This document shows positions 11,465-34,505 of a stretch of 44,991 nucleotides of DNA, one piece after another. The notes beneath the pieces were generated by a model. It ran no database searches. It worked only from the letters and a program-made list of their open reading frames with translations, and was not told the origin of the DNA. The position numbers and the translations under genes are program-made. The stretch is from a phage: sequence record PZ379602.1. One strand, 5' to 3'. The first letter of the stretch is position 1; every line of letters starts with the position of its first letter.

Positions 11465-12600
11465 ATGGCAGCAGCAAAGATTACCAACGAGCAATTAATC
11501 GAAGAACTGAAAAACGGCCTTACTAACAAGGCGATTGCAGAGAAGTATGGTATGAACATTCGTAACGTTGAGATTCGTCGCAGTAAGTTGGCTAAGAGTG
11601 GCTTGTTCGGGCATGGTAACGAAGGCATTAAGAAGCTAGTACCGGACGGATACTTGGTAAAAGGCACTTCGACCATGATTGATGCGGATGGGAATGAGAA
11701 GCTGCGTTGGGTTAAGACTTCAATTGATAATGAGCGCCTTGAGATTCTGCTTGAGCAAGCACGAGAGGCATTTTGTTCTGACTTACCAAAGGCAGTTGCC
11801 AGTGAGTGCCCAGACATTGATTTTGATGATGACACGATGGCTATGTATCCGGTTTTCGACCTTCACATTGGCGCAATGGCTCATAAGCATGAGTGCGGTG
11901 AAAACTACGACACTGCAACAGCAGAGAAGGTAATGAATAGCTTCTTTGATTATGCTGTAGATAAGGCTCCTAAATCAATAAATGCGACATTAGTTTTGGG
12001 GGTGATTTTCTGCATTACGACTCTCTAGAGGCTAAAACACCAGCATCAGGACATATCTTAGACAGCGACAGTCGCTATGCTAAATTGGTTTACGTAGCAA
12101 TCCGCTCAGTGCGTCGTGCGGTTTCAAGGATGCTTGAGAAGCACCAAATCATTGATATTAAAGTAATAAGTGGAAATCACGACGAAGCTGGGATGGTTTG
12201 GTTGCGTGCAGCATTGGCGGCATTCTATGAAGACGAGGAGCGAATTACTGTCGACGTAAGCCCAGCAGCAATGCTGATGACAAGCTTCGGCTCAACATTG
12301 ATTGGTTATACTCATGGTCACCAGATGCGAAAAGCTGAAACTCGACTTACAGTAATGGCTACAGACTTTCGTAAACTATTCGGTAACAGCGAATATGTCT
12401 ATACACACTCGGGCCACTGGCATAGTCAGAAAATTACAGAAACAAACCTGGGTATCGATGAAGTTCATGGTCAGCTTGGCGCGCCAGATGCCTATTCAGC
12501 TAATGGAGGATGGCGCTCAATGCGTCAAGCAGCGGTAATCGTTTACCATAAGCGTTTTGGTGAGGTTGGTCGATTTATTTGTCGCCCTGAGATGTTCTAA
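11465..12600 (+). CDS. calcineurin-like metallophosphoesterase with N-terminal HTH domain; split by a frameshift at a G5 run
   Basis: N-terminal HTH-like NKAIAEKYGMNIRNV; motifs DLHIG, GDFLHYD (only after a +1 correction at 11998-12002) and GNHDE; two ORFs 11465..12028 and 12085..12600 in different frames. Confidence 0.6.
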
Positions 12601-13148: not shown

Positions 13149-13703
13149 ATGAAAAAGTTAATCATCCTTAATGCACCCCCTGGTGCTGGAAAAGATACAG
13201 TTGCAGATATCATTGTTAATCTTGGAATTTGCAAGGATAAGGTTTCATTCAAGTCACCAATGTTTAATGTTGCAAAAGGAATACTATCAAGCGATGAGTT
13301 TGATGAATTTATTAAGAATTACGATGACCGAGAGTACAAAGAATCACCACATGAATTTCTTGGTGGAATGACGGTTCGTGAATTTATGATTTGGATTAGT
13401 GAGTCAGTTATGAAGCCAGTCTTTGGTGATGATGTTTTCGGTAAAAGGCTAGCGCAATCACTTGGTGATGGTTGCTATATCTGTGCTGATGGTGGCTTCG
13501 CTAGCGAGATTAATACTCTCATTGATTCAGGGGTTGAAGTTACTTTGATTAGACTTTTTAGGCCTGGCTATACTTTTGATGGAGATAGCCGCTCCTACAT
13601 TCGCGGTGTCTGCGCAAGAGAAATTGACGTTCATGTTGTAGATGGTGATATTGATGGAACCTCTGCTTTGGTAATGCACGTAATAAATAGCACGAATTGC
13701 TAA
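13149..13703 (+). CDS. P-loop nucleotide kinase (dNMP kinase-like)
   Basis: P-loop ILNAPPGAGKDTVADII resembles phage dNMP kinases (compared from memory); start at ATG 13149 just after the upstream stop. Confidence 0.6.
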   Translation: MKKLIILNAPPGAGKDTVADIIVNLGICKDKVSFKSPMFNVAKGILSSDEFDEFIKNYDDREYKESPHEFLGGMTVREFMIWISESVMKPVFGDDVFGKRLAQSLGDGCYICADGGFASEINTLIDSGVEVTLIRLFRPGYTFDGDSRSYIRGVCAREIDVHVVDGDIDGTSALVMHVINSTNC

Positions 13704-13748
13704 ACAATCGCCGGAGTAATCCGGCATAATTACTACATCGAAAACAAC
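13687..13748 (+). promoter_or_regulatory. modular promoter-like element (box, hairpin GCCGGA...TCCGGC, CATAAT, CATCGAAAACAAC)
   Basis: Box is inside the last codons of the kinase gene, which ends NSTNC; canonical spacing. Confidence 0.55.
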
Positions 13749-13761
13749 AGAGGATTCAAAA

Positions 13762-13935
13762 ATGACTAAATTATACTGCGTTAAAAACAACTCAAAGACA
13801 CTGCCGTTCACCGAAAACCAGCCGTACAGCGCAGAGTCTCTAGGTGACGGTTACTACAAAGTTTACGGTGACGATATGACTCACATCCTTGCGCCGATTG
13901 ATGGCTCTTTGGTGGAATTTATTATCGCAGATTAA
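13762..13935 (+). CDS. hypothetical small protein (57 aa)
   Basis: ATG ORF after AGAGGA RBS, between a promoter element and a strong terminator. Confidence 0.45.
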   Translation: MTKLYCVKNNSKTLPFTENQPYSAESLGDGYYKVYGDDMTHILAPIDGSLVEFIIAD

Positions 13936-14763: not shown

Positions 14764-15146
14764 AGGCTGCGTTAATTGCTGCGGTAATTATACTTTCTGG
14801 TTGCTCGGCAACATCTGCGCTGACCGGGTTGATTGGTAGTAAGCCAGAGATTAGCGCTCAAGCAGGTGCGGAGAATAACAAGGTTGGAGTAGGGCTAACT
14901 AATAAGGTTGATTCAAGTTCCAGCGCAAAGGCTGAAGTGAAGAACTCTAAGGTTGACACTCTTGATAGTTCAAGCGGTAAAAAGACTTCTGATAACTCAA
15001 TCAAGGCATCAACAATCACGGCTGAGAAGATTGAAATCACCAACAATGATTCGTCTGCAATCCCGTGGATTGGGAGTGGAATCATGTTTTGCGTCATCAT
15101 CATTCTGCTCTTAATGATATTCAGGAAAAACAAAAAAGCCCCGTAA
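14760..15146 (+). CDS. unimolecular spanin (lipoprotein with C-terminal transmembrane domain)
   Basis: Lipobox ILSGC at the N-terminus and a C-terminal TMD (IMFCVIIILLLMIF); start overlaps the endolysin stop. Confidence 0.8.
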   Translation: MKAALIAAVIILSGCSATSALTGLIGSKPEISAQAGAENNKVGVGLTNKVDSSSSAKAEVKNSKVDTLDSSSGKKTSDNSIKASTITAEKIEITNNDSSAIPWIGSGIMFCVIIILLLMIFRKNKKAP

Positions 15147-15160
15147 TGGGGCTATTTTTA
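15137..15160. terminator. bidirectional rho-independent terminator
   Basis: Hairpin GCCCC-gtaat-GGGGC flanked by an A run upstream and a T run downstream; spanin stop lies in the loop. Confidence 0.65.
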
Positions 15161-15493
15161 TGCAAACAATTCGTCATCACTCATGTTGGCTATGTTCATC
15201 ATCTCACTGACGTAATCACTGGACCTACCTTCAAGGCTCATGAATTCAAACTGAAATGGTCGCTTAATTGAACCCTTACACCAGTACACTCCATTAACTC
15301 CATCAAGATACCCAGCCGTAAGCATTCTCGCCATAAACTCCTTCGAGCAACTTGAGGCAAAATACCTTTCATCAACCCCGGCAGCCTTGGCCATCCTTGC
15401 GCAATCCTTGTGCTTATAGATGAATCTTGCCAGGTGCTGGCGGTTGAAGTTCTTGTATCCTTCGCAGAAATTATACAGGTCGAGCAGGTACAT
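15158..15493 (-). CDS. hypothetical protein (111 aa)
   Basis: Minus-strand ORF tightly following the 527-aa gene. Confidence 0.5.
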   Translation of the reverse strand: MYLLDLYNFCEGYKNFNRQHLARFIYKHKDCARMAKAAGVDERYFASSCSKEFMARMLTAGYLDGVNGVYWCKGSIKRPFQFEFMSLEGRSSDYVSEMMNIANMSDDELFA

Positions 15494-15496
15494 AAA

Positions 15497-17080
15497 TTAC
15501 CCCAGCAATCGTGGATTAATGTAAATTTTATCACCAATCAGGCATGTGTAGTTTTTCTCATCAAGCATAGGAATCAAGTGGTCCTTAATGCGAGTCATAA
15601 TTCCAGCCTGAGCTTCAAAAGGTTTAACCTTGCGTGCAGCCTCATACAACGAGCGAACACCAACAACACCTTTACCATTCTTGCCTTGCTTAATCAGGAT
15701 ATCAACCAGCTTGTTCATCTCGGCATTGTCACCAGCATGACCAGCAGCACTAGCGGATGATAAATAAGTCTTGCTTAGTTCGTTGAAAATCATAACCGCT
15801 TCCTGCATTGTATCCAGTTCAATCTCTCTTGACTTTTGAGGGCTGGATCCGGCTGGTGAGAACCAGTTACGAATTACGTGCAGAACAGAAGCGATGCGGA
15901 TTGCTTGCTTATCAAACTTACCAAGAGCACCGCGCAACATTGTGTGAGAATACTTGCCACCATCACCAAGATGAGGCTCCATCTCTTGACGAGCGCGGTT
16001 AAGGTAACGCATTGATGACGCGCTTACAGTAAGTTTCGCTTCAACTTCATTCATAATCTCATGAACAAGACGGAAATAGTCTGCTTTCAGGCCGCCATCA
16101 ATAGCCTCATAGGTTGAATCACCATTCTCATCAACAAATACGCGCTCACCAAGAAATGACTTCTCACGCACCAGAAGGAAGCGCTCAGATACACCGATAC
16201 CACGCGCACCGGCATTCATAATGGCGTTAATTGTTTCATCCTGCGCAATTACAGAGATACAACCCATAGCCACGAAACTCATGTTGTTTTCTGCATTCGC
16301 GCGCGCAATAGATACATTACCCGCATCCCACGCCTTAAGCACAAGTTCGCTGTTCGTTTTCTTCGAGCCATCACCGTAAGTCATGCCTAACAGTGAGTTG
16401 ACGCTAGTAGCCTCATCAGATATTACCGCAAAATTACCCTGGCGATTGTTGATTCGCGCAAGACCTTCCGGTGTAGTATCGGAGACAGGGAATACTATAT
16501 CGCATAGCTTCTCGAGCTTCTCCTCTAAATCCTCCTTCTCCTCAAAAAGTGAAGCCATTTCAGAAGGTGATTTCTCCTGCTTCATCTCTTTAGCCAGAGC
16601 GGACAGTTTAGCCATAATCTTTTTTCGATCACGTTTACGTACTTCATTCAACCGCTCAGTCTCAGCAATCATCGGCGCAATTGATAGCGAGTTAATGGCT
16701 GATTTACCAGTTGAAGGCGGCTGACTTGTTACCACGTACAAAGATGTTGGCTGTTGGGTTCCATGATACTCGACAGTAAAACGCCCAAGCATTGCAGCAG
16801 AAACACAACCAAGAAAGTGCATGTAAGCTGACGACTCAGGGAACTGAACCGAGCGAGCGATATTAGCCGATAGCTTACCAACAACATCAATATCATTACC
16901 GAGTGAGATTACTGGATACTTATCATTACCTGTATCAATCTCGACAGGTGCTTTCCAGAACGATTGAGACTGTCGATAGCCATTGGCATTAATAGCCACG
17001 CGAAGCGGTGGTAGGTTGTCATTGGCAGCGATTGCCATAACCTGCTCAACAGATAGTTTATCTTCGTTGAAATCAAACAT
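15497..17080 (-). CDS. large early protein of unknown function (527 aa), possibly replication-associated
   Basis: Long ORF with a promoter-like element and GGAGAG RBS upstream; no P-loop or methyltransferase motifs recognised. Confidence 0.75.
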   Translation of the reverse strand: MFDFNEDKLSVEQVMAIAANDNLPPLRVAINANGYRQSQSFWKAPVEIDTGNDKYPVISLGNDIDVVGKLSANIARSVQFPESSAYMHFLGCVSAAMLGRFTVEYHGTQQPTSLYVVTSQPPSTGKSAINSLSIAPMIAETERLNEVRKRDRKKIMAKLSALAKEMKQEKSPSEMASLFEEKEDLEEKLEKLCDIVFPVSDTTPEGLARINNRQGNFAVISDEATSVNSLLGMTYGDGSKKTNSELVLKAWDAGNVSIARANAENNMSFVAMGCISVIAQDETINAIMNAGARGIGVSERFLLVREKSFLGERVFVDENGDSTYEAIDGGLKADYFRLVHEIMNEVEAKLTVSASSMRYLNRARQEMEPHLGDGGKYSHTMLRGALGKFDKQAIRIASVLHVIRNWFSPAGSSPQKSREIELDTMQEAVMIFNELSKTYLSSASAAGHAGDNAEMNKLVDILIKQGKNGKGVVGVRSLYEAARKVKPFEAQAGIMTRIKDHLIPMLDEKNYTCLIGDKIYINPRLLG

Positions 17081-17154
17081 TACTTCTCTCCGTGTTGTTC
17101 TGAGCGGCCATTATATCAATAGCCGCTTATAATGCATTATCAATTAGTGCTATT
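17081..17154 (-). promoter_or_regulatory. modular promoter-like element for the 527-aa gene (box AATAGCACTAATTGATAA, hairpin, TATAAT)
   Basis: Box at 17137-17154 overlaps the stop of the upstream minus-strand ORF; 22-bp spacing to TATAAT. Confidence 0.5.
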
Positions 17155-17310
17155 TAGTAAGATGCAATCTATCTTGTAGTAGTCAAAGTGATTTTCTGAA
17201 GATGTTTCTTTGTTATATTTAAACTCCTGTGCTTTGAATTCTTCATCGAAAGCGGCAATCACTTCGCTTCCATCATAGTGTGTGCAACCACTTACAATGT
17301 ATAATTTCAT
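17140..17310 (-). CDS. hypothetical small protein (56 aa)
   Basis: ATG ORF whose C-terminus (LNSTN) is encoded by the promoter box; start overlaps the upstream stop. Confidence 0.35.
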   Translation of the reverse strand: MKLYIVSGCTHYDGSEVIAAFDEEFKAQEFKYNKETSSENHFDYYKIDCILLNSTN

Positions 17311-17857: not shown

Positions 17858-17932
17858 GATCTCTTGCTCTCTTCGTTTCGATGGAGTAAATATACGCCAT
17901 CCGTGGCGGTGAGTTTTAGCAATTAGTGCTAT
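17858..17932 (-). promoter_or_regulatory. modular promoter-like element (box ATAGCACTAATTGCTAAA, hairpin CGCCA...TGGCG, TATATT, CCATCGAAACGAAG)
   Basis: Read on the minus strand; box overlaps the stop of the upstream small ORF. Confidence 0.55.
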
Positions 17933-18080
17933 TTTTTCTGGCCTTCTCAATTGCCTTCAACATAATCTCGTGAGACTCAAGCAGGTCCTCGTTAAACCAG
18001 TCCCCGCAAGGCCAACCCTTTCCGCTGTAAGCACTAATTATTTCCAGATCGAAATAGTTTATCTCAGATGGTAAAAGCAT
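17916..18080 (-). CDS. hypothetical small protein (54 aa)
   Basis: ATG ORF; C-terminus KNSTNC encoded by the promoter box. Confidence 0.4.
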   Translation of the reverse strand: MLLPSEINYFDLEIISAYSGKGWPCGDWFNEDLLESHEIMLKAIEKARKNSTNC

Positions 18081-18480: not shown

Positions 18481-18552
18481 ATCTCTCTCCTCGTTGTTGA
18501 TGGATTCATTATGGTATCGTCGCCAGTTTTTGTCATTAGCAAAAAGTGCTAT
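18481..18552 (-). promoter_or_regulatory. promoter-like element for the minus-strand early block (box ATAGCACTTTTTGCTAAT, CATAAT)
   Basis: Read on the minus strand; 23-bp spacing from TTGCTA to CATAAT. Confidence 0.45.
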
Positions 18553-18567
18553 TCGTTGGATTTATCT

Positions 18568-18980
18568 ATTGTTGCAGCTATTGCAATGATTATCATGATT
18601 ATTGCACATATAGCAATATTGCATGGAATGCAATGATGTTTTTGATTGTTGCAGAATTTGCAATGATTGATGTGGGGTGAATGAATGGTGGATGAACTAC
18701 CATACAAGTTGATTTTGATTCTTGCTGAGCCAATTTGGATATACACGTTATCGAAGTTATGGTGTGTATATGAGGTGCGCTTCCGAAGAATCATACACGC
18801 CTACCACGCTAGATTACGCAATGGTTACATAATAATATCTATATATATCAACCTTTTACTATATTATTATTATTATTATATATATGTATGTATATGGTGT
18901 AGATTGGTCGTATGGATGGGTCGATAGTTTTTCTATGAAAACTACTAATTTTATCTATATAGATACATATGCATATCCCC
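18568..18980. other. putative origin / regulatory hub: iteron-like direct repeats plus AT-rich low-complexity tract
   Basis: ATTGTTGCAG-N3-TTGCAATGATT at 18568-18591 and 18645-18668; TGCAATGAT also at 18629-18637; (TTA)n and (TA)n tracts around 18840-18960; lies between divergent transcription units. Confidence 0.4.
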
Positions 18981-19781: not shown

Positions 19782-19843
19782 ATAGCACTTTTTGCCTAAC
19801 GCAATAATGCCATGGATGGCATAATTATCTCATCGAAACGAGA
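19782..19843 (+). promoter_or_regulatory. modular promoter-like element (box ATAGCACTTTTTGCCTAA, hairpin TGCCAT...ATGGCA, CATAAT, CATCGAAACGAGA)
   Basis: Canonical 22-bp spacing and leader box 5 nt after the hexamer. Confidence 0.55.
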
Positions 19844-19862
19844 GGCACAAAGGAAAACGAAA

Positions 19863-20051
19863 ATGGCTAAGCGCATCACTAAAGAACTTAAAGTCCTGAA
19901 TAAAGAAAACGTAATCACCATCCTGACAATGTTCGGATACAACGAAGAGTCAGCGATTGCAAAGGTTGAGGCTGGTTACGATGTTGCAGTACGTAGTATG
20001 CCGGAAGCAACCTCAAAAGGTATCGCCGACTTCCTGGCTACCTGCTACTGA
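19863..20051 (+). CDS. hypothetical small protein (62 aa)
   Basis: ATG ORF downstream of a promoter element. Confidence 0.5.
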   Translation: MAKRITKELKVLNKENVITILTMFGYNEESAIAKVEAGYDVAVRSMPEATSKGIADFLATCY

Positions 20052-20106
20052 GTTATCTTACAAGGCATCTCGCGGGGTGCCTCAATAAGACAACTGGAGA
20101 AACAGC

Positions 20107-20292
20107 ATGAAAACTAAAATGGTACATAAGAGCGAAGTTAAGATTGGCGATACTGTTATCCATCGTGGCTATCTTAGAACTGTAAATGCCAACACTTTTA
20201 GTAAGGATGAGTTTATGGGACTACTTCTTTGGGGCGACTCCTACCGGCTTGGGCAGGAGATGGTTGAAGTCATAATTGATGTTAAGTTTTGA
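20107..20292 (+). CDS. hypothetical small protein (61 aa)
   Basis: ATG ORF after GGAGAAACAGC. Confidence 0.45.
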   Translation: MKTKMVHKSEVKIGDTVIHRGYLRTVNANTFSKDEFMGLLLWGDSYRLGQEMVEVIIDVKF

Positions 20293-20360
20293 ATAGCACG
20301 AATTGCTAAACCTTCCGCAAGGCCATTTGATATAGTGGCCTTATTGAAGCAAAGCAAAAG
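20293..20360 (+). promoter_or_regulatory. promoter-like element (box ATAGCACGAATTGCTAAA, hairpin AAGGCCA...TGGCCTT, TATAGT; degenerate leader box)
   Basis: Box begins right after the upstream TGA stop. Confidence 0.5.
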
Positions 20361-20599: not shown

Positions 20600-20829
20600 T
20601 TACAATTAACCTGTCAGAGAAAAATGCAGCAATCCTTAAATCGATCATAATGAAGCCGATGCACTCTACGCTAACATTTGAGCAGATGCGTGTCGTGAAA
20701 GAGACTGGAGCACAAATCAACAATCAGCAGTTCGACGTATCAGACTTCGAGTCATCGCGCCAGTATGAGGCATTAAGCATTCAGAACGCTGGCTACCTAA
20801 CTAACTGGGATAAGGCGACTAAGAAATGA
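20596..20829 (+). CDS. hypothetical protein (77 aa)
   Basis: ATGA start/stop overlap with the upstream gene. Confidence 0.5.
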   Translation: MITINLSEKNAAILKSIIMKPMHSTLTFEQMRVVKETGAQINNQQFDVSDFESSRQYEALSIQNAGYLTNWDKATKK

Positions 20830-20975
20830 TTTTATATATCCATGAGTACTGGACTGGGAAGTTTAACACCGTTCGACATGTTAGAGTTTATGAAGATTAT
20901 GTGAGTGCTTTCAATCAACAGAAGGTACTTGGTGGCACTGTCAAGGTTTGCGATGTTATAGATGAGATTTACTAA
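20826..20975 (+). CDS. hypothetical small protein (49 aa)
   Basis: ATGA overlap with the upstream gene; ends just before a promoter box. Confidence 0.35.
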   Translation: MILYIHEYWTGKFNTVRHVRVYEDYVSAFNQQKVLGGTVKVCDVIDEIY

Positions 20976-21037
20976 ATAGCATGAATTGCTAAACAATTGC
21001 CGGAGAAATCCGGCATAATTACCACATCGACAACGAG
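20976..21037 (+). promoter_or_regulatory. modular promoter-like element (box ATAGCATGAATTGCTAAA, hairpin GCCGGA...TCCGGC, CATAAT, CATCGACAACGAG)
   Basis: Hairpin arms nearly identical to those of the element at 13687. Confidence 0.55.
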
Positions 21038-22035: not shown

Positions 22036-22197
22036 ATGATTAAGATCGTATATATTGGTGAGGATGATTATATGGCGCGCTTAAAGCATGGCGACGTATT
22101 CTATGCAGAGCCTAGCGAAGATGGCAATGGGTACTTCATTAAAAACAAGCACGATGAGGAGCTTTACATAGCAAACCACGAGGCTCTTGTTTACTAA
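22036..22197 (+). CDS. hypothetical small protein (53 aa)
   Basis: Strong RBS AAGTGAGGTGA before the ATG. Confidence 0.5.
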   Translation: MIKIVYIGEDDYMARLKHGDVFYAEPSEDGNGYFIKNKHDEELYIANHEALVY

Positions 22198-22337
22198 TGG
22201 ATAACTACGAAACACCAAGCCAGTGGGCTAAACGGATGATGGATGAGGCTAAGACTGGCGAGGTTGCCATGATGTACTTCGAGCTGATGAATCTATGGAA
22301 GGAGCGTGAAGATAAAATAAACAGCACGAATAGCTAA
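22197..22337 (+). CDS. hypothetical small protein (46 aa)
   Basis: ATG overlapping the upstream stop; C-terminus INSTNS encoded by the box variant. Confidence 0.4.
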   Translation: MDNYETPSQWAKRMMDEAKTGEVAMMYFELMNLWKEREDKINSTNS

Positions 22338-22385
22338 ACACCAAAGGCATGGATGCCATATAATTTATATATCAAACAGCGAGAG
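22322..22385 (+). promoter_or_regulatory. promoter-like element variant (box CAGCACGAATAGCTAAA, hairpin GGCAT...ATGCC, TATAAT)
   Basis: 22-bp spacing to a perfect TATAAT; degenerate leader box. Confidence 0.45.
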
Positions 22386-23199: not shown

Positions 23200-23275
23200 G
23201 TTCTGCTGGCGTAACAGGATAACGCAAAGACCTCCTAAGTCTTAGTTACTGGTTCGAGTCCAGTGCGGAACACCA
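23200..23275 (+). tRNA. tRNA-Arg (anticodon CCU, reads AGG), CCA encoded
   Basis: Manual fold: acceptor GTTCTGC/GCGGAAC (one G-U), D stem GCGT/ACGC, anticodon stem AAGAC/GTCTT with loop CTCCTAA, T arm ACTGG-TTCGAGT-CCAGT, discriminator A, CCA. Confidence 0.85.
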
Positions 23276-24337: not shown

Positions 24338-24457
24338 TAACATGGGGTAGATTGGCGTGATCAAATTAATGAAGGCGTTATTGGTGTATTACATGATGGC
24401 AGCTACATGCTTCACAACTGGATTCTTAATTGGCGTGATGGTTGGATTGGTGAAATT

Positions 24458-26026
24458 ATGGCTAATTTAGTTTGGGAGGAAATGACGCCAGCAGAAAAGA
24501 TGGCGGTTAAGGCGATATCCACTCATAGCTTCGAGGGTTTCTTACGAGTGTGGTTCCAGCTTACCCAGGGAGAGCGATACATACCTAACTGGCACCATAG
24601 ATACCTTTGCAGAATTATCGATGAGATTATTGCTGGTGAGCGTAAGGACACAATCATTAACATCGCTCCTGGCAGTGGGAAGACAGAGATTGCCTCAATT
24701 CACTTCCCAGCCTACTCAATGGTTAAGTTGAGAAAGGTAAGGAACCTGAATATATCGTATGCTGACTCACTGGTTAAGCGTAACTCCAAGCGTGTGCGCG
24801 ACTTAATTAAGTCTGTTGAGTTCCAGGAGTTGTTCCCATGTAAGTTTGGTACGTGTAAGGATGATGAGCTACAGGTCCTGGATGACTATGGCAAGGTCAG
24901 GTTTGAGTCAATCTCTAAAGCCACTGGCGGCCAAATTACAGGCGCGAGGGGTGGATATATAACCGATTCGTATAGTGGTGCGGTACTGTTAGATGATTTT
25001 GACAAACCAGCCGACATGCTTTCTGCTGTTTTTCGCGCTAACAATCACGTGATGCTAAAGAATACAATACGCTCTCGTAGGGCGAGCTCCGTAAAAGGAA
25101 AGGCGACGCCGATTATCTCTATCCAACAGCGCCTTCATGTGAACGATAGTACGTGGTTCATGATGAATGGCGGTATGGGTATTAGCTTCGACTTGATTAA
25201 AATACCGGCGCTCGTAACTGAGGATTACGTCGACACGCTTCCTGACTGGATTAAGCAGCAATTCATTGATGACGTTCTATCAAGCGAATATATTGAGCGT
25301 GATGGTGTTAGGTACTATAGCTATTTCCCTGGCAAGGAATCTGTTCACGACCTAGTTGCAATGTGGGATTCTGATAGCTATACATTCCTTAGCCAGTATC
25401 AGCAAGAACCAGTAGCACTTGGCGGCAACCTGATTAACGTAGACTGGCTTCAACGCATTAGCGACACTCTGCGACCGCCAGCTAAGTACGATTACAGGTT
25501 TATGGTCCTTGATACTGCGATGACAACCAAAAGTTACAGCGACTTTAGCGTCATGCAGCTATGGGGTTATAAGGATGGGAAGATTTATCTGCTTGACCAG
25601 CGGCGCGGTAAATTTGAAGCTCCTGAGCTCGAGGCTGAGTTATTGGATTTCGAGAAGATGGCTAGGGCATCCAATCAGATAGATGGCATCCTTCGTAAAA
25701 TCATCATCGAGAAGAAAGCCTCTGGTATTGGCCTGATTCAATCAGCCGGAAGGGTTATGCGAACGCCTATCGAGCCGTACGTTCCGGATAACGATAAGCT
25801 GACTCGCGTAATGAGTGCATTGCCGCAGATTAAAGCTGGTAACGTAATCCTTCCGGAGTCTGCTACTTGGCTTAATGGCTTGCTAACGGAGATTGCGGCA
25901 TTCACGGCAGATGATTCACATGTTCACGATGACCAGATAGACTGTTTGACAATGGCTGTCAACCTGGTACTGAACATTGCAGAAGACCCTAAATCGAGGA
26001 TGATGCGCCTCGCTGGCATCAAATAG
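24458..26026 (+). CDS. terminase large subunit
   Basis: Walker A-like NIAPGSGKTEI; acidic nuclease-type C-terminal half; start at ATG 24458 (an alternative ATG exists at 24407). Confidence 0.85.
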   Translation: MANLVWEEMTPAEKMAVKAISTHSFEGFLRVWFQLTQGERYIPNWHHRYLCRIIDEIIAGERKDTIINIAPGSGKTEIASIHFPAYSMVKLRKVRNLNISYADSLVKRNSKRVRDLIKSVEFQELFPCKFGTCKDDELQVLDDYGKVRFESISKATGGQITGARGGYITDSYSGAVLLDDFDKPADMLSAVFRANNHVMLKNTIRSRRASSVKGKATPIISIQQRLHVNDSTWFMMNGGMGISFDLIKIPALVTEDYVDTLPDWIKQQFIDDVLSSEYIERDGVRYYSYFPGKESVHDLVAMWDSDSYTFLSQYQQEPVALGGNLINVDWLQRISDTLRPPAKYDYRFMVLDTAMTTKSYSDFSVMQLWGYKDGKIYLLDQRRGKFEAPELEAELLDFEKMARASNQIDGILRKIIIEKKASGIGLIQSAGRVMRTPIEPYVPDNDKLTRVMSALPQIKAGNVILPESATWLNGLLTEIAAFTADDSHVHDDQIDCLTMAVNLVLNIAEDPKSRMMRLAGIK

Positions 26027-26087
26027 CACGTTTTGCTAAAGACGCGCCGCCAAGGATGGCTTATAGTTACTTCACGCAAACGAGAGG
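26023..26087 (+). promoter_or_regulatory. promoter-like element (box ATAGCACGTTTTGCTAAA, hairpin GCCA...TGGC, TATAGT)
   Basis: Box overlaps the TAG stop of terminase; 23-bp spacing. Confidence 0.45.
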
Positions 26088-28518: not shown

Positions 28519-29625
28519 ATGTATAAGAATCGCTTTGATACAGCAACATTCAAAGCCACCATTGACGAGAATGGTTTTCTCGTCGATACGCCAGTAGTAG
28601 CAAGGGTTGGTGTGCAGGTTTATTTCACAGAGGACGGTTCGACTGTTCGAGAGTTCAGGCCAGCAGAAGAAGTCTTCAAAGAGGAGTCGCTAGCCAGTTA
28701 CCAGGGTAAGCCAATGACTCTTGACCACGTCTTTGTAAACTCCGATAACGCTAAAGACGTAGTGGTCGGCTCGGTAACTGGTAAAGCTGAGGCTCTAGGA
28801 AGTACGGTAATTGCGCCAATTGTCGTATACTCTCAAGAAGCTATTGACGAGGCTCGCTCAGGTAACGCTAAGGAATTATCTGTAGGTTACTCGGCAGTTC
28901 TTGATGAAACTCCAGGTTGGGGCGACCCGGCAACTGGTAAGTACATTCTTAGGACTGACAACACGCAGGGTTTGGATATACCCCCTGACTGGCAAGAGTT
29001 CGACGCAATCCAGAGAGACATTAAGGTAAACCATTTAGCTATGGTCTTCAGGGGTAGGGCTGGAATTGCTAAGCTAAATATGGACGGGCAGCAAGAAAAC
29101 CCGTATACTGACAACGTTGATTTAAATACTAAGGAAAACAAAATGACAGTTAAGATTAAGATTGACTCTGTTGAAGTTGAGGTGTCTAAAGAGGTTGCAG
29201 ACCACATCTCCAAAATTAACTCCGCTGTTGAAGCACAGAAAGCTAAGGTTGATTCCATCGAAGCTGAGCGTGACGCACTGAAAGCCAAAGTAGACGCAAT
29301 GCCCGCTGAAATCGAGAAAGCAGTCAAAGCTGCCAAAGCTGACGCTGAAGCACTTGCCGCTCTGGTTACTGTAGCCACTGAAGCTGGTGTTAAGACTGAT
29401 GGCCTGGATGCTAAAGGCATTAAGGTATTATACGTTAAAGAAGTTTCCGGCCTTGATGTTTCCGAGAAGTCCGACGCATACATCGATGCAGCGTTCGACA
29501 TTGCCAAAGATTCTGATAAAATGGCTGAAGTTCGCAAGGCAACCGCAGCTTCCGACAAATCTGATGCTGCCGACGCACCTAAGAAATTAGACCCGCGCAC
29601 TCGTTTAGCAAAAATTAAAAAGTAA
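28519..29625 (+). CDS. capsid scaffolding protein, possibly with protease function
   Basis: C-terminal half is Ala/Lys/Glu-rich coiled-coil-like; position between minor head and major capsid genes; GAGGAG RBS. Confidence 0.55.
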   Translation: MYKNRFDTATFKATIDENGFLVDTPVVARVGVQVYFTEDGSTVREFRPAEEVFKEESLASYQGKPMTLDHVFVNSDNAKDVVVGSVTGKAEALGSTVIAPIVVYSQEAIDEARSGNAKELSVGYSAVLDETPGWGDPATGKYILRTDNTQGLDIPPDWQEFDAIQRDIKVNHLAMVFRGRAGIAKLNMDGQQENPYTDNVDLNTKENKMTVKIKIDSVEVEVSKEVADHISKINSAVEAQKAKVDSIEAERDALKAKVDAMPAEIEKAVKAAKADAEALAALVTVATEAGVKTDGLDAKGIKVLYVKEVSGLDVSEKSDAYIDAAFDIAKDSDKMAEVRKATAASDKSDAADAPKKLDPRTRLAKIKK

Positions 29626-29636
29626 GGAGATAGATA

Positions 29637-30167
29637 ATGGCAATTCGTTCTGTAGCACTGGCAGGTATGGTGGCTGATACTTCCCTGTACAATATCGATG
29701 GCGCTTGTGTAGTTGGCGGTACTGCCGCCACACGTATCCCTGTTGGCACATTCGTGGGTGTTAGCACCGCTCAGCCTGTAGATGGTCACAAGGTTGTCGC
29801 CCTTCCAGCCGTATCAGGGACTGCAATTAAACCTTACGGTGTTGTTGTTCGTTCTCACTACGAGACTCCGGATGGTCAGGCTCGCGGCCTTGAAGCAGTT
29901 AACGTCATGACCTCTGGCCGTATTTGGGTTCGCACCACTCTGTCTGCGGCTCCGGCATTTGGCGATAAAGTTTACGTAAATGCTTCTGGTGTTGTGACAG
30001 CTAAAGCAGCTACTACAACTTGGGAAACTGGTTACAGGTTCGCTGGTGGTTTCCTTTCTGGTTACGTTCCCGGAAGCGACCATATCAAGCAAGGTGAGAG
30101 CTACGACGGCGCTCTGGTTGAAGTTCAATTGATTCAATCCGCAGATTCGGTATTAGCTACTGCTTAA
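29637..30167 (+). CDS. hypothetical head protein (176 aa)
   Basis: Gly/Val/Thr-rich ORF between scaffold and major capsid genes. Confidence 0.45.
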   Translation: MAIRSVALAGMVADTSLYNIDGACVVGGTAATRIPVGTFVGVSTAQPVDGHKVVALPAVSGTAIKPYGVVVRSHYETPDGQARGLEAVNVMTSGRIWVRTTLSAAPAFGDKVYVNASGVVTAKAATTTWETGYRFAGGFLSGYVPGSDHIKQGESYDGALVEVQLIQSADSVLATA

Positions 30168-34443: not shown

Positions 34444-34505
34444 ATAGCACTTTTTGTTAAAGGCTAAGTCGCGGATTGCTGTATAGTTCATTCATCGAAA
34501 AGAAA
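34444..34505 (+). promoter_or_regulatory. modular promoter-like element inside the tail module (box ATAGCACTTTTTGTTAAA, TATAGT, CATCGAAAAGAAA)
   Basis: 22-bp spacing; leader box 5 nt after the hexamer. Confidence 0.5.

What the first reader, a model, noticed from the sequence alone, without database searches (positions are those of the whole stretch)
13687..13704. Regulatory box overlaps stop codons and dictates the C-termini of upstream proteins
In most copies the box contains the stop codon of the preceding gene (TAG in aTAGcac, or TAA in gcTAAa), so several unrelated proteins end with box-encoded residues: NSTNC (kinase 13149..13703, ORF 17916..18080), LNSTN (17140..17310), INSTNS (22197..22337). 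Each spacer hairpin would also form in any read-through transcript. The element may therefore act at RNA level as well (processing site, stabiliser or insulator between cistrons), and it looks like a cassette boundary.
Basis: seen in the sequence. Interest (0 to 1): 0.6.

Follow-up and report, generated by a model that had tools for sequence, protein, structure and literature searches.

The report
Marbox promoters that end phage genes
The repeated 18-base box is the upstream half of this T1-like phage's standard promoter; it matches the DNA site of the host stress activators MarA/SoxS/Rob almost perfectly, and because it carries two stop codons the preceding genes run into it and end there.

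Summary
ATAGCACGAATTGCTAAA occurs 11 times at 3 mismatches or fewer (0.06 expected). With looser variants there are 14 forward cassettes and one reversed copy. In 9 of the 14 the upstream gene's stop lies inside the box (TAG at positions 2-4, TAA at 15-17, TGA at 12-14), and in 2 more it abuts the box. The tails NSTNC, LNSTN and INSTNS are real.

The window is a T1-like coliphage (Drexlerviridae, Braunvirinae). The box is the 21-nt direct repeat already published for TLS, T1, Rtp and Rogue1, with function unknown. What I add: it is a near-optimal marbox, the binding site of MarA/SoxS/Rob. It faces forward and lies 20 bp upstream of a near-consensus -10. That places GCAC at -47 to -44, the class II register seen in the Rob-micF cryo-EM complex. 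I found no phage AraC-family protein, so a host activator, probably Rob, is the likely reader. This is inferred, not shown.

Orthologous proteins carry different tails depending on frame and on whether the box is present, so the tails are incidental. Gene modules are gained and lost exactly between boxes, which supports the cassette-boundary idea. Hairpins are enriched (71% of cassettes) but not universal, and an RNA-level role is untested.

The parts
13687..13706 (+). 20-bp marbox-type box. The A site GCAC is at 13690..13693 and the B site TGCTAAA at 13698..13704. The inferred promoter position is -50 to -31.
   Evidence: Sequence. It scores 17.0 bits on a matrix built from ChIP-seq sites for MarA/SoxS/Rob/RamA. 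It matches the consensus AYnGCACnnWnnRYYAAAYn with 0 mismatches.
13701..13703 (+). TAA stop of the dNMP kinase gene 13149..13703, at box positions 15-17. The last five residues, NSTNC, are encoded by the box.
   Evidence: The kinase matches phrog_139 at E 6e-42.
13710..13725 (+). Spacer inverted repeat GCCGGA-GTAA-TCCGGC. The folded segment has MFE -11.9 kcal/mol.
13725..13730 (+). -10 hexamer CATAAT, 20 bp after the 18-bp box.
13735..13745 (+). Conserved start region aCATCGAAAAC. The predicted +1 is the A at 13737. This is inferred, not mapped.
   Evidence: Consensus tacc.cAtcgAAAc. The +1 base is A in 102 of 121 cassettes.
13762..13935 (+). Downstream gene served by this promoter (57 aa, phrog_4788).
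1316..1333 (+). Box copy. The TAG at 1317..1319 ends the RecE-like gene 348..1319. The -10 is at 1354..1359 and the next gene starts at 1390.
6120..6137 (-). Box copy. Its TAG ends the HTH-regulator gene 6134..6616(-). The -10 is at 6094..6099, and it precedes the primase gene 5142..6080(-).
6629..6646 (+). Box copy of the TTTTT-centre variant, in the divergent intergenic region upstream of the helicase gene that starts at 6713. There is no upstream co-directional gene.
10263..10280 (+). Box copy. The TAG at 10264..10266 ends the VRR-NUC gene 9847..10266. The -10 is at 10301..10306.
17136..17153 (-). Box copy of the TTGATAAT variant. The TGA at box positions 12-14 ends ORF 17140..17310(-) with the tail LNSTN. 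It precedes the DUF3987 gene 15497..17080(-).
17915..17932 (-). Box copy. The TAA at positions 15-17 ends ORF 17916..18080(-) with the tail NSTNC.
18535..18552 (-). Box copy of the TTTTT variant. Its TAG ends ORF 18549..18794(-). The -10 lies at 21 bp.
19782..19799 (+). Degenerate box copy (ATAGCACTTTTTGCCTAA) with a -10 at 19820..19825 and the conserved start region. It does not overlap a stop codon.
20293..20310 (+). Box copy. The TGA of ORF 20107..20292 abuts it.
20976..20993 (+). Box copy. The TAA of ORF 20826..20975 abuts it.
22321..22338 (+). Box copy (ACAGCACGAATAGCTAAA). The TAA at positions 15-17 ends ORF 22197..22337 with the tail INSTNS.
26023..26040 (+). Box copy (ATAGCACGTTTTGCTAAA). 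The TAG at 26024..26026 ends the large terminase gene 24407..26026.
34444..34461 (+). Box copy of the TTTTT variant, downstream of a terminator in the tail-gene region. The upstream stop lies 33 nt before it.
5078..5095 (+). Reverse-oriented copy relative to its neighbours. It lies between the primase terminator (5121..5141) and the side tail-fibre gene 2526..5054(-). On the minus strand an extended -10 (TG at 5107..5108, TACAAT at 5100..5105) puts the box at about -2 to +16 of that gene's promoter. Its role is unexplained.

Best explanation
The box is the activator-binding half of the phage's standard promoter.

Proposed mechanism:
1. One monomer of a host MarA/SoxS/Rob-type activator binds the asymmetric 20-bp site in forward orientation. 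Rob is the most likely reader at the start of infection because it is constitutive.
2. The site has GCAC at -47 to -44 and TGCTAAA at -39 to -33. The activator occupies the place of the missing -35 hexamer.
3. The activator recruits sigma-70 RNA polymerase to a near-consensus -10 hexamer lying 18 bp beyond the 20-bp site.
4. Transcription starts at the A of the conserved CATCGAAACGA, about 25 nt ahead of the ribosome-binding site of the next gene.

The fixed box sequence contains TAG at positions 2-4 and TAA at positions 15-17. In a tightly packed genome the upstream gene therefore runs into the box and is closed there. In the third frame the gene is closed by a stop placed flush against the box. 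This leaves short, functionally incidental tails such as ...K, ...NSTNC and ...NSTN.

The 18-bp spacer is free of sequence constraint and often holds a GC-rich inverted repeat. Its role is not established. It may be a weak terminator, or a 3'-end stabiliser for the upstream message.

The roughly 60-bp cassette recurs about 15 times per genome, so it also serves as a homology patch at which gene modules are gained, lost and swapped.

Shown here: the sequence match, the geometry relative to the -10, the stop-codon overlap, the variable tails, and the module boundaries. Inferred: the start site, the identity of the binding protein, and activation.
For: Identity of the box:
- It fits the marbox consensus AYnGCACnnWnnRYYAAAYn (consensus quoted from memory). 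Hits at 1 mismatch or fewer: 15 in the window (0.6 after shuffling), 21 in T1 (0.5), 13 in KP36 (0.8).
- On a matrix built from 87 experimental ChIP-seq sites (PMC10268841, Table 1) the window boxes score 15.3-17.9 bits. The ChIP sites themselves have a leave-one-out median of 10.6, a 90th percentile of 15.6 and a maximum of 17.6.
- The variant GCACAAATTGCTAAA, found in relatives, is identical to the best-scoring site in that table.
- The base-frequency matrices correlate at r = 0.88 at the correct offset and orientation, and at no more than 0.46 elsewhere.
- The conservation pattern is asymmetric. G4 is 97% conserved, while its would-be palindrome partner at position 14 varies among C, T and A, exactly as in marboxes.

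Geometry:
- The -10 hexamer lies exactly 20 bp after the box in 116 of 141 cassettes.
- The -10 averages 5.0 of 6 matches to consensus. The -35 region is weak.
- This puts GCAC at -47 to -44 and G/T at -38/-37. These are the same positions Rob contacts on micF in the cryo-EM complex (PMC9178005).
- It fits the class II rule of forward orientation, overlap with the -35, and a site centre near -41 (PMC10268841 section 18; PMC6900184).
- A plain sigma-70 scan finds no excess of canonical promoters (41 found, 40.1 expected).

No phage-encoded reader found:
- tblastn with MarA and SoxS gives E > 1 in 7 genomes.
- Pfam and PHROGs scans covered about 20 of the larger ORFs, not all of them. They show only one Cro/MerR-like single-HTH protein.
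- Rob is constitutively present at a high level (PMC9178005).

Conservation: the same cassette occurs 13-21 times in T1, KP36 and six Braunvirinae genomes. It is at background level in two outgroup phages that share only the terminase and head genes.

Tails are incidental: the same protein ends differently according to frame or box presence. The kinase ends NSTNC, NSTN...FINK or has no box. RecE ends ...K...I or ...GTNS.
Against: - There are no binding, start-site or genetic data. The +1 is inferred from the -10.
- Position 19 of the 20-bp consensus (Y) is matched in only about 35% of copies.
- Rob is largely held inactive by sequestration in unstimulated cells (PMC9178005; PMC10268841). MarA and SoxS are scarce unless induced. 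That makes them awkward drivers for a fast lytic phage.
- 'Pseudomonas phage Motto' keeps about 15 cassettes. If P. aeruginosa is its real host, a MarA/SoxS/Rob reader is less obvious there.
- All these phages keep a conserved HTH regulator (phrog_2856) whose target is unknown.
- The very high identity among copies could partly reflect gene conversion between cassettes rather than selection for affinity.
- The 20-bp IUPAC consensus and the '18-19 bp to the -10' rule are quoted from memory (Martin et al. 1999).
Confidence: 0.62

Rival explanations
1. The box is read by a phage-encoded protein rather than a host factor. One candidate is the conserved 160-aa HTH regulator (6134..6616(-), phrog_2856). 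It would act either as an activator centred near -42 or as a stoperator-like repressor.
For: The regulator is conserved in T1 (ST23), KP36 (gp55), Motto and the window. The box contains a partial palindrome, TAGCA-N5-TGCTA. The TLS authors raised the stoperator and enhancer ideas (PMC11447400). The reversed copy at the tail-fibre promoter looks like an operator. Motto keeps the boxes on a reported Pseudomonas host.
Against: Conservation is asymmetric and does not follow the palindrome. The match to an independent MarA/SoxS/Rob matrix is at the top of the range of real sites. A stoperator has no reason to sit exactly 20 bp from a -10 hexamer. If a phage protein were needed, the promoters of the earliest genes could not fire, yet few canonical promoters exist.
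Confidence: 0.17
2. RNA polymerase reads the box directly, with no activator. The box would act as an UP-like element or as an unusual -35 (TTGCTA).
For: TTGCTA matches TTGACA at 4 of 6 positions. The box spans -50 to -33, where alpha-CTD contacts occur. The TLS paper suggests UP elements. Some copies create TAAACA with an 18-bp spacer.
Against: TTGCTA lies 22 bp from the -10, outside the working range of sigma-70 spacers (established knowledge; geometry). The best-conserved bases are GCAC and TG, not the A/T tracts of an UP element.
Confidence: 0.12
3. The element works mainly in RNA. The hairpin, in read-through transcripts, would be a processing site, a stabiliser or an insulator, and the box would be secondary.
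For: Hairpins are enriched: mean MFE is -7.9 against -3.8 kcal/mol for background segments (Mann-Whitney p = 5e-23, orthologous copies not independent). The T1 and KP36 annotators called several of them rho-independent terminators or stem-loops. Some spacers hold a true stem plus T-run, for example GCCCTTCGGGGCTTTT.
Against: 33 of 114 distinct cassettes have no stable hairpin. In 63 the hairpin encloses the -10 and has no U-tract. Only 2 meet a simple terminator rule. Orthologous promoters carry unrelated hairpins or none. Covariation is inconclusive. The stems are too short for RNase III (inference). There is no Rfam match. The invariant parts are the box and the -10, not the hairpin.
Confidence: 0.06

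Closest known systems
The 21-nt direct repeat of T1-like phages (aaATAGCACnnnTTGnTAAAA; TLS re-annotation, PMC11447400)
   Same: It is the same sequence and has the same orientation along transcription. The distance to start codons agrees: 72-84 nt here for 13 of 14 cassettes, about 76 nt in TLS. The same subgroups by central triplet (GAA, TTT, AAA) are present. The paper reports it for TLS, T1, Rtp and Rogue1.
   Different: The paper leaves the function open, suggesting a stoperator, an enhancer site or an UP element. It does not mention the marbox, the fixed -10 partner, the stop-codon overlap, or the module boundaries.
Class II MarA/SoxS/Rob-dependent promoters of E. coli and Salmonella (for example micF)
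   Same: An asymmetric 20-bp site in forward orientation that overlaps a poor -35. GCAC lies at -47 to -44 and the B site at -38 to -33. A good -10 is present.
   Different: The promoters are carried by a virulent phage. There are about 15 near-optimal copies in 45 kb. They are fused to the stop codon of the preceding gene and often to an inverted repeat. Binding and activation have not been shown.
Stoperators of mycobacteriophage L5 (Brown et al. 1997, cited in PMC11447400)
   Same: Many copies of an asymmetric, oriented protein-binding site placed at gene boundaries throughout a phage genome.
   Different: Stoperators bind the phage repressor to block elongation in a temperate phage, and they have no fixed partner -10. 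Here the site is locked 20 bp from a -10, and the annotations of its closest relatives and the ORFs scanned list no integrase or immunity repressor.
PeSL (promoter-early stem-loop) cassettes of T4-type phages (Arbiol et al. 2010, from memory)
   Same: A short promoter-plus-stem-loop unit flanks small early genes and acts as a recombination junction for modular shuffling.
   Different: In PeSL the stem-loop precedes an ordinary sigma-70 early promoter. Here the inverted repeat lies inside the promoter, between the activator box and the -10 or around the -10, and the promoter is of the activator-box type.

Membership tests
T1-family 21-nt direct repeat (PMC11447400) | Consensus aaATAGCACnnnTTGnTAAAA, with conservation highest at ATAGCAC and TAAA | tested here: met
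   The logo from 116 cassettes is aAATAGCACgAATTGcTAAA.
T1-family 21-nt direct repeat (PMC11447400) | Oriented with transcription, about 76 nt upstream of start codons | tested here: met
   14 of 15 window copies face the downstream gene. The distance from box start to ATG is 72-84 nt for 13 of the 14, and 57 nt for one.
Class II MarA/SoxS/Rob (marbox) promoter | A 20-bp asymmetric marbox with GCAC (A site) and YYAAA (B site) | tested here: met
   15 consensus hits at 1 mismatch or fewer, against 0.6 after shuffling. Scores of 15.3-17.9 bits on the ChIP-derived matrix, at or above the 90th percentile of real sites. r = 0.88 only in the right register. Position 19 (Y) is mostly not matched.
Class II MarA/SoxS/Rob (marbox) promoter | Forward orientation, overlapping the -35, with the site centre near -41 | tested here: met
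   The box ends 20 bp before the -10 in 116 of 141 cassettes. This gives GCAC at -47 to -44, as in the Rob-micF complex. It rests on a +1 inferred from the -10, not on a mapped start.
Class II MarA/SoxS/Rob (marbox) promoter | Poor -35 hexamer together with a good -10 | tested here: met
   The best -35 match over three spacings averages 3.0 of 6. The -10 averages 5.0 of 6. There is no excess of canonical promoters.
Class II MarA/SoxS/Rob (marbox) promoter | Bound by MarA, SoxS or Rob, with transcription dependent on them | not testable with these tools
   This needs gel shift, footprinting or ChIP, and promoter fusions in a rob marA soxS mutant.
Sigma-54 (-24/-12) promoter | TGGCAC-N5-TTGC with strict spacing | tested here: not met
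   The box has TAGCAC-N3-TTGC, which is 2 bp too short and has AG in place of GG (sequence). A sigma-70-type -10 lies at a fixed distance.
Intrinsic (rho-independent) terminator | GC-rich hairpin immediately followed by a U-tract | tested here: inconclusive
   81 of 114 cassettes have a hairpin of -5 kcal/mol or stronger, but only 2 have a T-rich tail by a simple rule, and 63 enclose the -10. A few relatives have a clear stem plus TTTT. T1 and KP36 annotate some as terminators.
L5-type stoperator | Repressor-binding site with no fixed relation to promoter hexamers, acting on elongation | tested here: not met
   The strict 20-bp spacing to a -10 contradicts this. Binding of a phage repressor is not testable here.
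Dimer-bound palindromic operator (CRP/FNR-like class II site) | Both half-sites equally conserved and complementary | tested here: not met
   TAGCA-N5-TGCTA is only a partial palindrome. G4 is 97% conserved against 66% for C14. C7 with T11, and A17/A18 with A1/A0, are not complementary.

The most novel reading that the evidence does not exclude
T1-family phages (Drexlerviridae) run most of their early and middle transcription from about 15-20 class II promoters that depend on the host MarA/SoxS/Rob activators. Their gene expression would then be wired into the same stress regulon that controls antibiotic efflux and porins. Bile salts, salicylate or redox stress could tune infection. The many near-optimal boxes on replicating phage DNA could also soak up these activators. 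The same box doubles as a two- or three-frame translational stop and as the junction for module shuffling.
Probability: 0.5. Interest if true: 0.8.

Novelty: new member of a known kind. Interest (0 to 1): 0.66.

Why it matters
T1-like phages have no RNA polymerase or sigma factor of their own. The TLS authors reported, to their surprise, only three sigma-70-like promoters, and they left the 21-nt repeat unexplained.

Reading the repeat as a class II marbox gives these phages a complete promoter set. It also names a concrete, testable host dependency: Rob, MarA or SoxS.

If this is right, it links infection by a very common family of coliphages and Klebsiella phages to the host regulon for multidrug efflux and oxidative or bile stress. 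That family includes therapy candidates and fermentation contaminants. The link bears on phage-antibiotic interactions and on phage behaviour in the gut.

The stop-codon overlap is by itself a modest point. It does show how a fixed regulatory word shapes protein ends. It also explains the heavy use of TAG, which is E. coli's rarest stop codon (background knowledge), at these gene boundaries: 38 of 117 cassettes across 8 genomes, and 5 of the 11 overlapping or abutting stops in the window.

Tried and rejected
- Sigma-54 promoter. GCAC...TTGC looks similar, but the spacing is 2 bp short and a sigma-70 -10 is present. Rejected.
- Palindromic operator for a dimer at -41.5. This was my first reading. 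The asymmetric conservation pattern rules it out.
- TTGCTA as a -35 hexamer. It lies 22 bp from the -10. Rejected.
- Phage-encoded MarA-like protein. tblastn with MarA and SoxS found nothing in the window or the 7 relatives then loaded, T1 and KP36 not included. The Pfam, PHROGs and PDB-sequence scans I ran, which covered about 20 of the window's ORFs, show only a single-HTH Cro/MerR-like protein.
- Rfam. Only a tRNA matched.
- Hairpin covariation in the promoter set downstream of VRR-NUC. One compensatory pair and a weak consensus fold, so inconclusive.
- Host-range test of the host-factor idea. The Vibrio phage 1.122.B and the Pantoea phage PSKM share only packaging and head genes and lack the box, so they are weak controls. 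'Pseudomonas' phage Motto is a true family member and keeps the boxes, so the test did not discriminate.
- Scan of IMG/VR for the box. Multi-copy hits fall in contigs of about 27-53 kb, but the result gave nothing beyond the complete genomes and was not pursued.
- Literature. No paper links T1-like phages to MarA/SoxS/Rob. No start-site data exist for the family. The Rtp genome paper is not held in the library.
Full report
**1. What is at the coordinates**

Window 13687..13704 reads ATAGCACGAATTGCTAAA. The TAA at 13701..13703 closes ORF 13149..13703. That ORF is a deoxynucleoside monophosphate kinase (phrog_139, E 6e-42).

The 18-mer has 11 matches at 3 mismatches or fewer, against 0.06 expected from dinucleotide-preserving shuffles. 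Every forward copy is followed by the same layout:
- a 20-nt spacer of variable sequence;
- a TATAAT-like hexamer;
- the conserved string tacc.CATCGAAACGA;
- a purine-rich ribosome-binding site and an ATG.

Allowing a variant with a TTTTT centre raises the count to 14 forward cassettes. One further copy, at 5078..5095, lies in the opposite orientation to its neighbouring genes.

**2. The stop-codon observation holds**

The upstream gene's stop codon falls as follows in the window:

| Stop position | Copies |
|---|---|
| TAG at box positions 2-4 | 1316, 6137(-), 10263, 18552(-), 26023 |
| TAA at positions 15-17 | 13687, 17932(-), 22321 |
| TGA at positions 12-14 | 17153(-) |
| Stop flush against the box | 20293, 20976 |
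| No overlap | 6629, 19782, 34444 |

Of the three without overlap, one lies in a divergent intergenic region, one follows a 108-bp gap, and one follows a terminator.

The quoted tails NSTNC, LNSTN and INSTNS are correct.

Across eight related genomes, 88 of 117 cassettes with an upstream ORF of at least 40 aa have the stop inside the box, overlapping its first base, or flush against it. These counts include orthologous copies and are not independent.

The reason is built into the word. TAG closes one frame in 96% of 118 distinct cassettes, and TAA closes a second frame in 91%. When the gene arrives in the third frame, its stop is usually placed directly against the box. A TAA precedes the box in 28% of cassettes. 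37% close all three frames within 27 nt, against 1.7% of random windows.

**3. The tails are incidental**

The same orthologous protein ends differently in different genomes:
- The kinase ends ...INSTNC in the window, AN_ECEAS and SU57. It ends ...INSTN in Msk, where a C-to-A change creates a TGA. It ends ...FINK in T1, where the gene meets the box in the TAG frame. It ends ...ALKL in KP36, which has no box there.
- RecE ends ...LLK (TAG), ...KEI (abutting TAA), or ...GTNS (TAA at position 15) in different genomes.
- Orthologues of ORF 22197 that lack the box end ...DKSNG or ...EEKQ.

Those residues are not conserved for the sake of the proteins.

**4. Where the window comes from, and prior knowledge**

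The window is a T1-like siphovirus of the family Drexlerviridae, subfamily Braunvirinae. It is about 92-95% identical to Escherichia phages ES and AN_ECEAS.

The repeat has already been published. The 2024 re-annotation of phage TLS reports a 21-nt direct repeat, aaATAGCACnnnTTGnTAAAA. It has 21 copies, is oriented with transcription, and sits about 76 nt upstream of start codons. The authors say it is also present in T1, Rtp and Rogue1. They found only three sigma-70-like promoters and left the function open, suggesting a stoperator-like element, an enhancer-binding site or an UP element (PMC11447400).

An earlier paper mentions 'phage-specific promoters' in Rtp-like phages without identifying them (PMC6301781). 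In the window, the distance from box to ATG is 72-84 nt for 13 of 14 cassettes.

**5. What the box is**

A text search for part of the box turned up a ChIP-seq table of MarA/SoxS/Rob/RamA sites. The box fits the marbox consensus AYnGCACnnWnnRYYAAAYn, which I quote from memory (Martin et al. 1999).

To avoid relying on memory, I built a weight matrix from the 87 experimentally located sites in Table 1 of PMC10268841. Results:
- The window boxes score 15.3-17.9 bits. The ChIP sites themselves have a leave-one-out median of 10.6, a 90th percentile of 15.6 and a maximum of 17.6.
- The base-frequency matrix of 105 distinct phage boxes correlates with the ChIP matrix at r = 0.88 in the correct register and orientation. 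At any other offset or on the other strand the correlation is no more than 0.46.
- The pattern of tolerated variation is that of a marbox. Position 14 varies among C, T and A, while GCAC, TG and AAA stay fixed. This is not the pattern of the partial palindrome TAGCA-N5-TGCTA that I had first taken for a dimer site.

Counts of consensus hits at 1 mismatch or fewer:

| Genome | Hits | After shuffling |
|---|---|---|
| Window | 15 | 0.6 |
| T1 | 21 | 0.5 |
| Klebsiella phage KP36 | 13 | 0.8 |
| Six other Braunvirinae genomes | 13-15 | 0.2-0.8 |

The two outgroup phages, which share only packaging and head genes, are at background level.

**6. Geometry**

The -10 hexamer follows the 18-bp box after exactly 20 bp in 116 of 141 cassettes. 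It averages 5.0 of 6 matches to TATAAT. The best -35 match, taken over three spacings, averages only 3.0 of 6. A plain sigma-70 scan finds no excess of canonical promoters (41 found, 40.1 expected).

I take the start as the seventh base after the -10, which is an A in 84% of cassettes. On that basis the box spans -50 to -33, with GCAC at -47 to -44 and G/T at -38/-37.

In the cryo-EM structure of Rob with RNA polymerase on micF, Rob contacts -47G and -45A at the A site, and -38G, -37T, -35 and -34 at the B site, and it displaces sigma region 4 from the -35 (PMC9178005). Class II marbox promoters are defined by forward orientation and overlap of the -35, and in the ChIP-seq study forward-oriented sites cluster about 41 bp upstream of the start site (PMC10268841 section 18; PMC6900184). 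The phage cassettes meet each of these criteria, subject to the inferred start.

**7. Who reads the box**

I found no AraC-family protein in these phages:
- tblastn with MarA and SoxS gives nothing better than E = 1.6 in the window and seven relatives.
- Pfam, PHROGs and PDB-sequence scans covered about 20 of the larger ORFs, not all of them. They show only one conserved single-HTH protein of Cro/MerR type, the ORF at 6134..6616(-) in phrog_2856.

A host activator is therefore the simplest reader. Rob is the obvious candidate because it is constitutive and abundant. MarA and SoxS would add to it under stress.

This step is inference, and several points count against it:
- Rob is largely sequestered in unstimulated cells.
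- Position 19 of the consensus is usually not matched.
- There are no start-site or binding data for this phage family.
- 'Pseudomonas phage Motto', a 45% GC member of the family, keeps about 15 cassettes. If its reported host is correct, this is hard to reconcile with a strictly enterobacterial activator.

**8. Hairpins**

The segment from spacer to +2 folds more stably than random genomic segments. Mean MFE is -7.9 against -3.8 kcal/mol, Mann-Whitney p = 5e-23, with the caveat that orthologous copies are not independent.

Breakdown of 114 distinct cassettes:

| Class | Count |
|---|---|
| Inverted repeat that puts the -10 in the loop and ends at the predicted +1 | 63 |
| Hairpin in the spacer or overlapping the 5' edge of the -10 | 18 |
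| No stable hairpin | 33 |

Only two have a T-rich tail by a simple rule. Some relatives do carry a clear stem plus TTTT inside the spacer. The T1 and KP36 records annotate several of these hairpins as rho-independent terminators or stem-loops.

Orthologous promoters can carry unrelated hairpins or none. Covariation in one orthologous set is inconclusive, with one compensatory pair. No Rfam family matches.

An RNA-level role remains possible and untested.

**9. Cassette boundaries**

BLAST homology-block endpoints between the window and seven relatives fall within cassettes 42 times out of 233, against 3% expected.

I repeated the test with AN_ECEAS as reference, controlling for gene boundaries. 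Boundaries with a cassette carry 5.06 endpoints each, against 1.89 for boundaries without one (p = 1.5e-4). The contrast holds against cassette-free intergenic gaps of at least 40 bp (p = 0.0015).

Plotted on cassette coordinates, endpoints peak sharply at the box (-10 to +19) and again at +50 to +79. Part of this could come from local divergence of the spacer.

The cleanest evidence comes from module gains and losses. In each case below, the stretch between two consecutive boxes in one genome is replaced in another by exactly one cassette, leaving a residual gap of about 53 bp:
- AN_ECEAS 29564..29818 and Msk 25088..25298, against a single cassette in five genomes, including the window at 10263.
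- Window 19782..20293, against phiA2-1.
- The two-gene phosphatase-plus-kinase module, which includes the kinase of this finding. It is present in the window, AN_ECEAS, SU57 and Msk, and absent from 12469II and A110b.
- Msk 15553..14798, against AN_ECEAS and SU57.

The same upstream gene, ORF 17916..18080, is joined through the box to three different spacers and different downstream genes.

This supports exchange of genes as units delimited by the box. It resembles the promoter-stem-loop cassettes of T4-type phages (comparison from memory).

**10. Verdict**

The element itself is already in the literature as an unexplained repeat.

What appears to be new is its identification as a near-optimal, correctly placed class II marbox. 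That reading turns an open annotation puzzle into a few simple experiments. I put 0.62 on the host-activator promoter model. The main rival is a phage-encoded reader.

**11. Unresolved**

- The conserved reversed copy at 5078..5095 sits at about -2 to +16 of an extended -10 promoter for the side tail-fibre gene (TG at 5107..5108, TACAAT at 5100..5105, minus strand). It is conserved in the six Braunvirinae relatives and in T1, and absent in KP36 and Motto.
- The purpose of the hairpins that enclose the -10 is unknown.

Noticed in passing
window 5078..5095 (+), with 5100..5108 and 5121..5141 on the minus strand: A near-perfect box lies in reverse orientation between the primase terminator and the side tail-fibre gene 2526..5054(-). 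An extended -10 (TGaTACAAT) on the minus strand sits just upstream, so the box covers the start of the tail-fibre transcript. It is conserved in six Braunvirinae genomes and in T1, and absent in KP36 and Motto. Possible readings are a repression site, a 5' RNA hairpin, or a weak antisense promoter.
   Followed up: partly
window 6713..9582: The helicase region is broken into ORFs 6713..7306, 7350..8204 (LAGLIDADG endonuclease domain) and 8137..9036 (intein splicing domain plus helicase C-terminal domain). Window 7159..8295 has no counterpart in Msk or phiA2-1. This looks like an intein or homing-endonuclease insertion, and the reading frames are not continuous.
   Followed up: partly
window 11465..12600: The DNA-repair exonuclease appears split into 11465..12028 (N-terminal half, phrog_704) and 12085..12600 (weak metallophosphoesterase match). 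AN_ECEAS has one 377-aa gene there.
   Followed up: no
window 6146..6163 (-): A second marbox-like word (GCAGCACGAAAAGATAAA, 13.9 bits) lies inside the 3' end of the HTH-regulator gene and encodes AARKDK. In AN_ECEAS, SU57 and phiA2-1 it is this inner copy, not the outer box, that has a -10 at 20 bp.
   Followed up: partly
window 1298..1315 (+): A degenerate 18-mer (GTATCAAGAATTACTAAA, 4 mismatches) sits directly against the true box at 1316 and encodes ...YQELLK of the RecE-like protein. It is also present in phiA2-1. It may be a relic of a tandem box.
   Followed up: no
window 23200..23275 (+): tRNA-Arg (anticodon CCU), as in related Braunvirinae genomes.
   Followed up: yes
L132 (Pseudomonas phage Motto, ON843697); L004 (Campylobacter phage A110b); PP134917 (Pseudomonas phage PsgS01F): Genomes closely related to coliphages carry non-enterobacterial host labels. 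Motto (45% GC) keeps about 15 box-plus-(-10) cassettes. Either the labels are unreliable or the box is also read in other hosts.
   Followed up: partly
window 13709..13726 and 20998..21015 (minus strand): Read on the opposite strand, two spacer hairpins are followed by ATTGTTTAGC, the complement of the box's 3' end, and they pass a simple terminator rule. They could stop antisense transcription.
   Followed up: no
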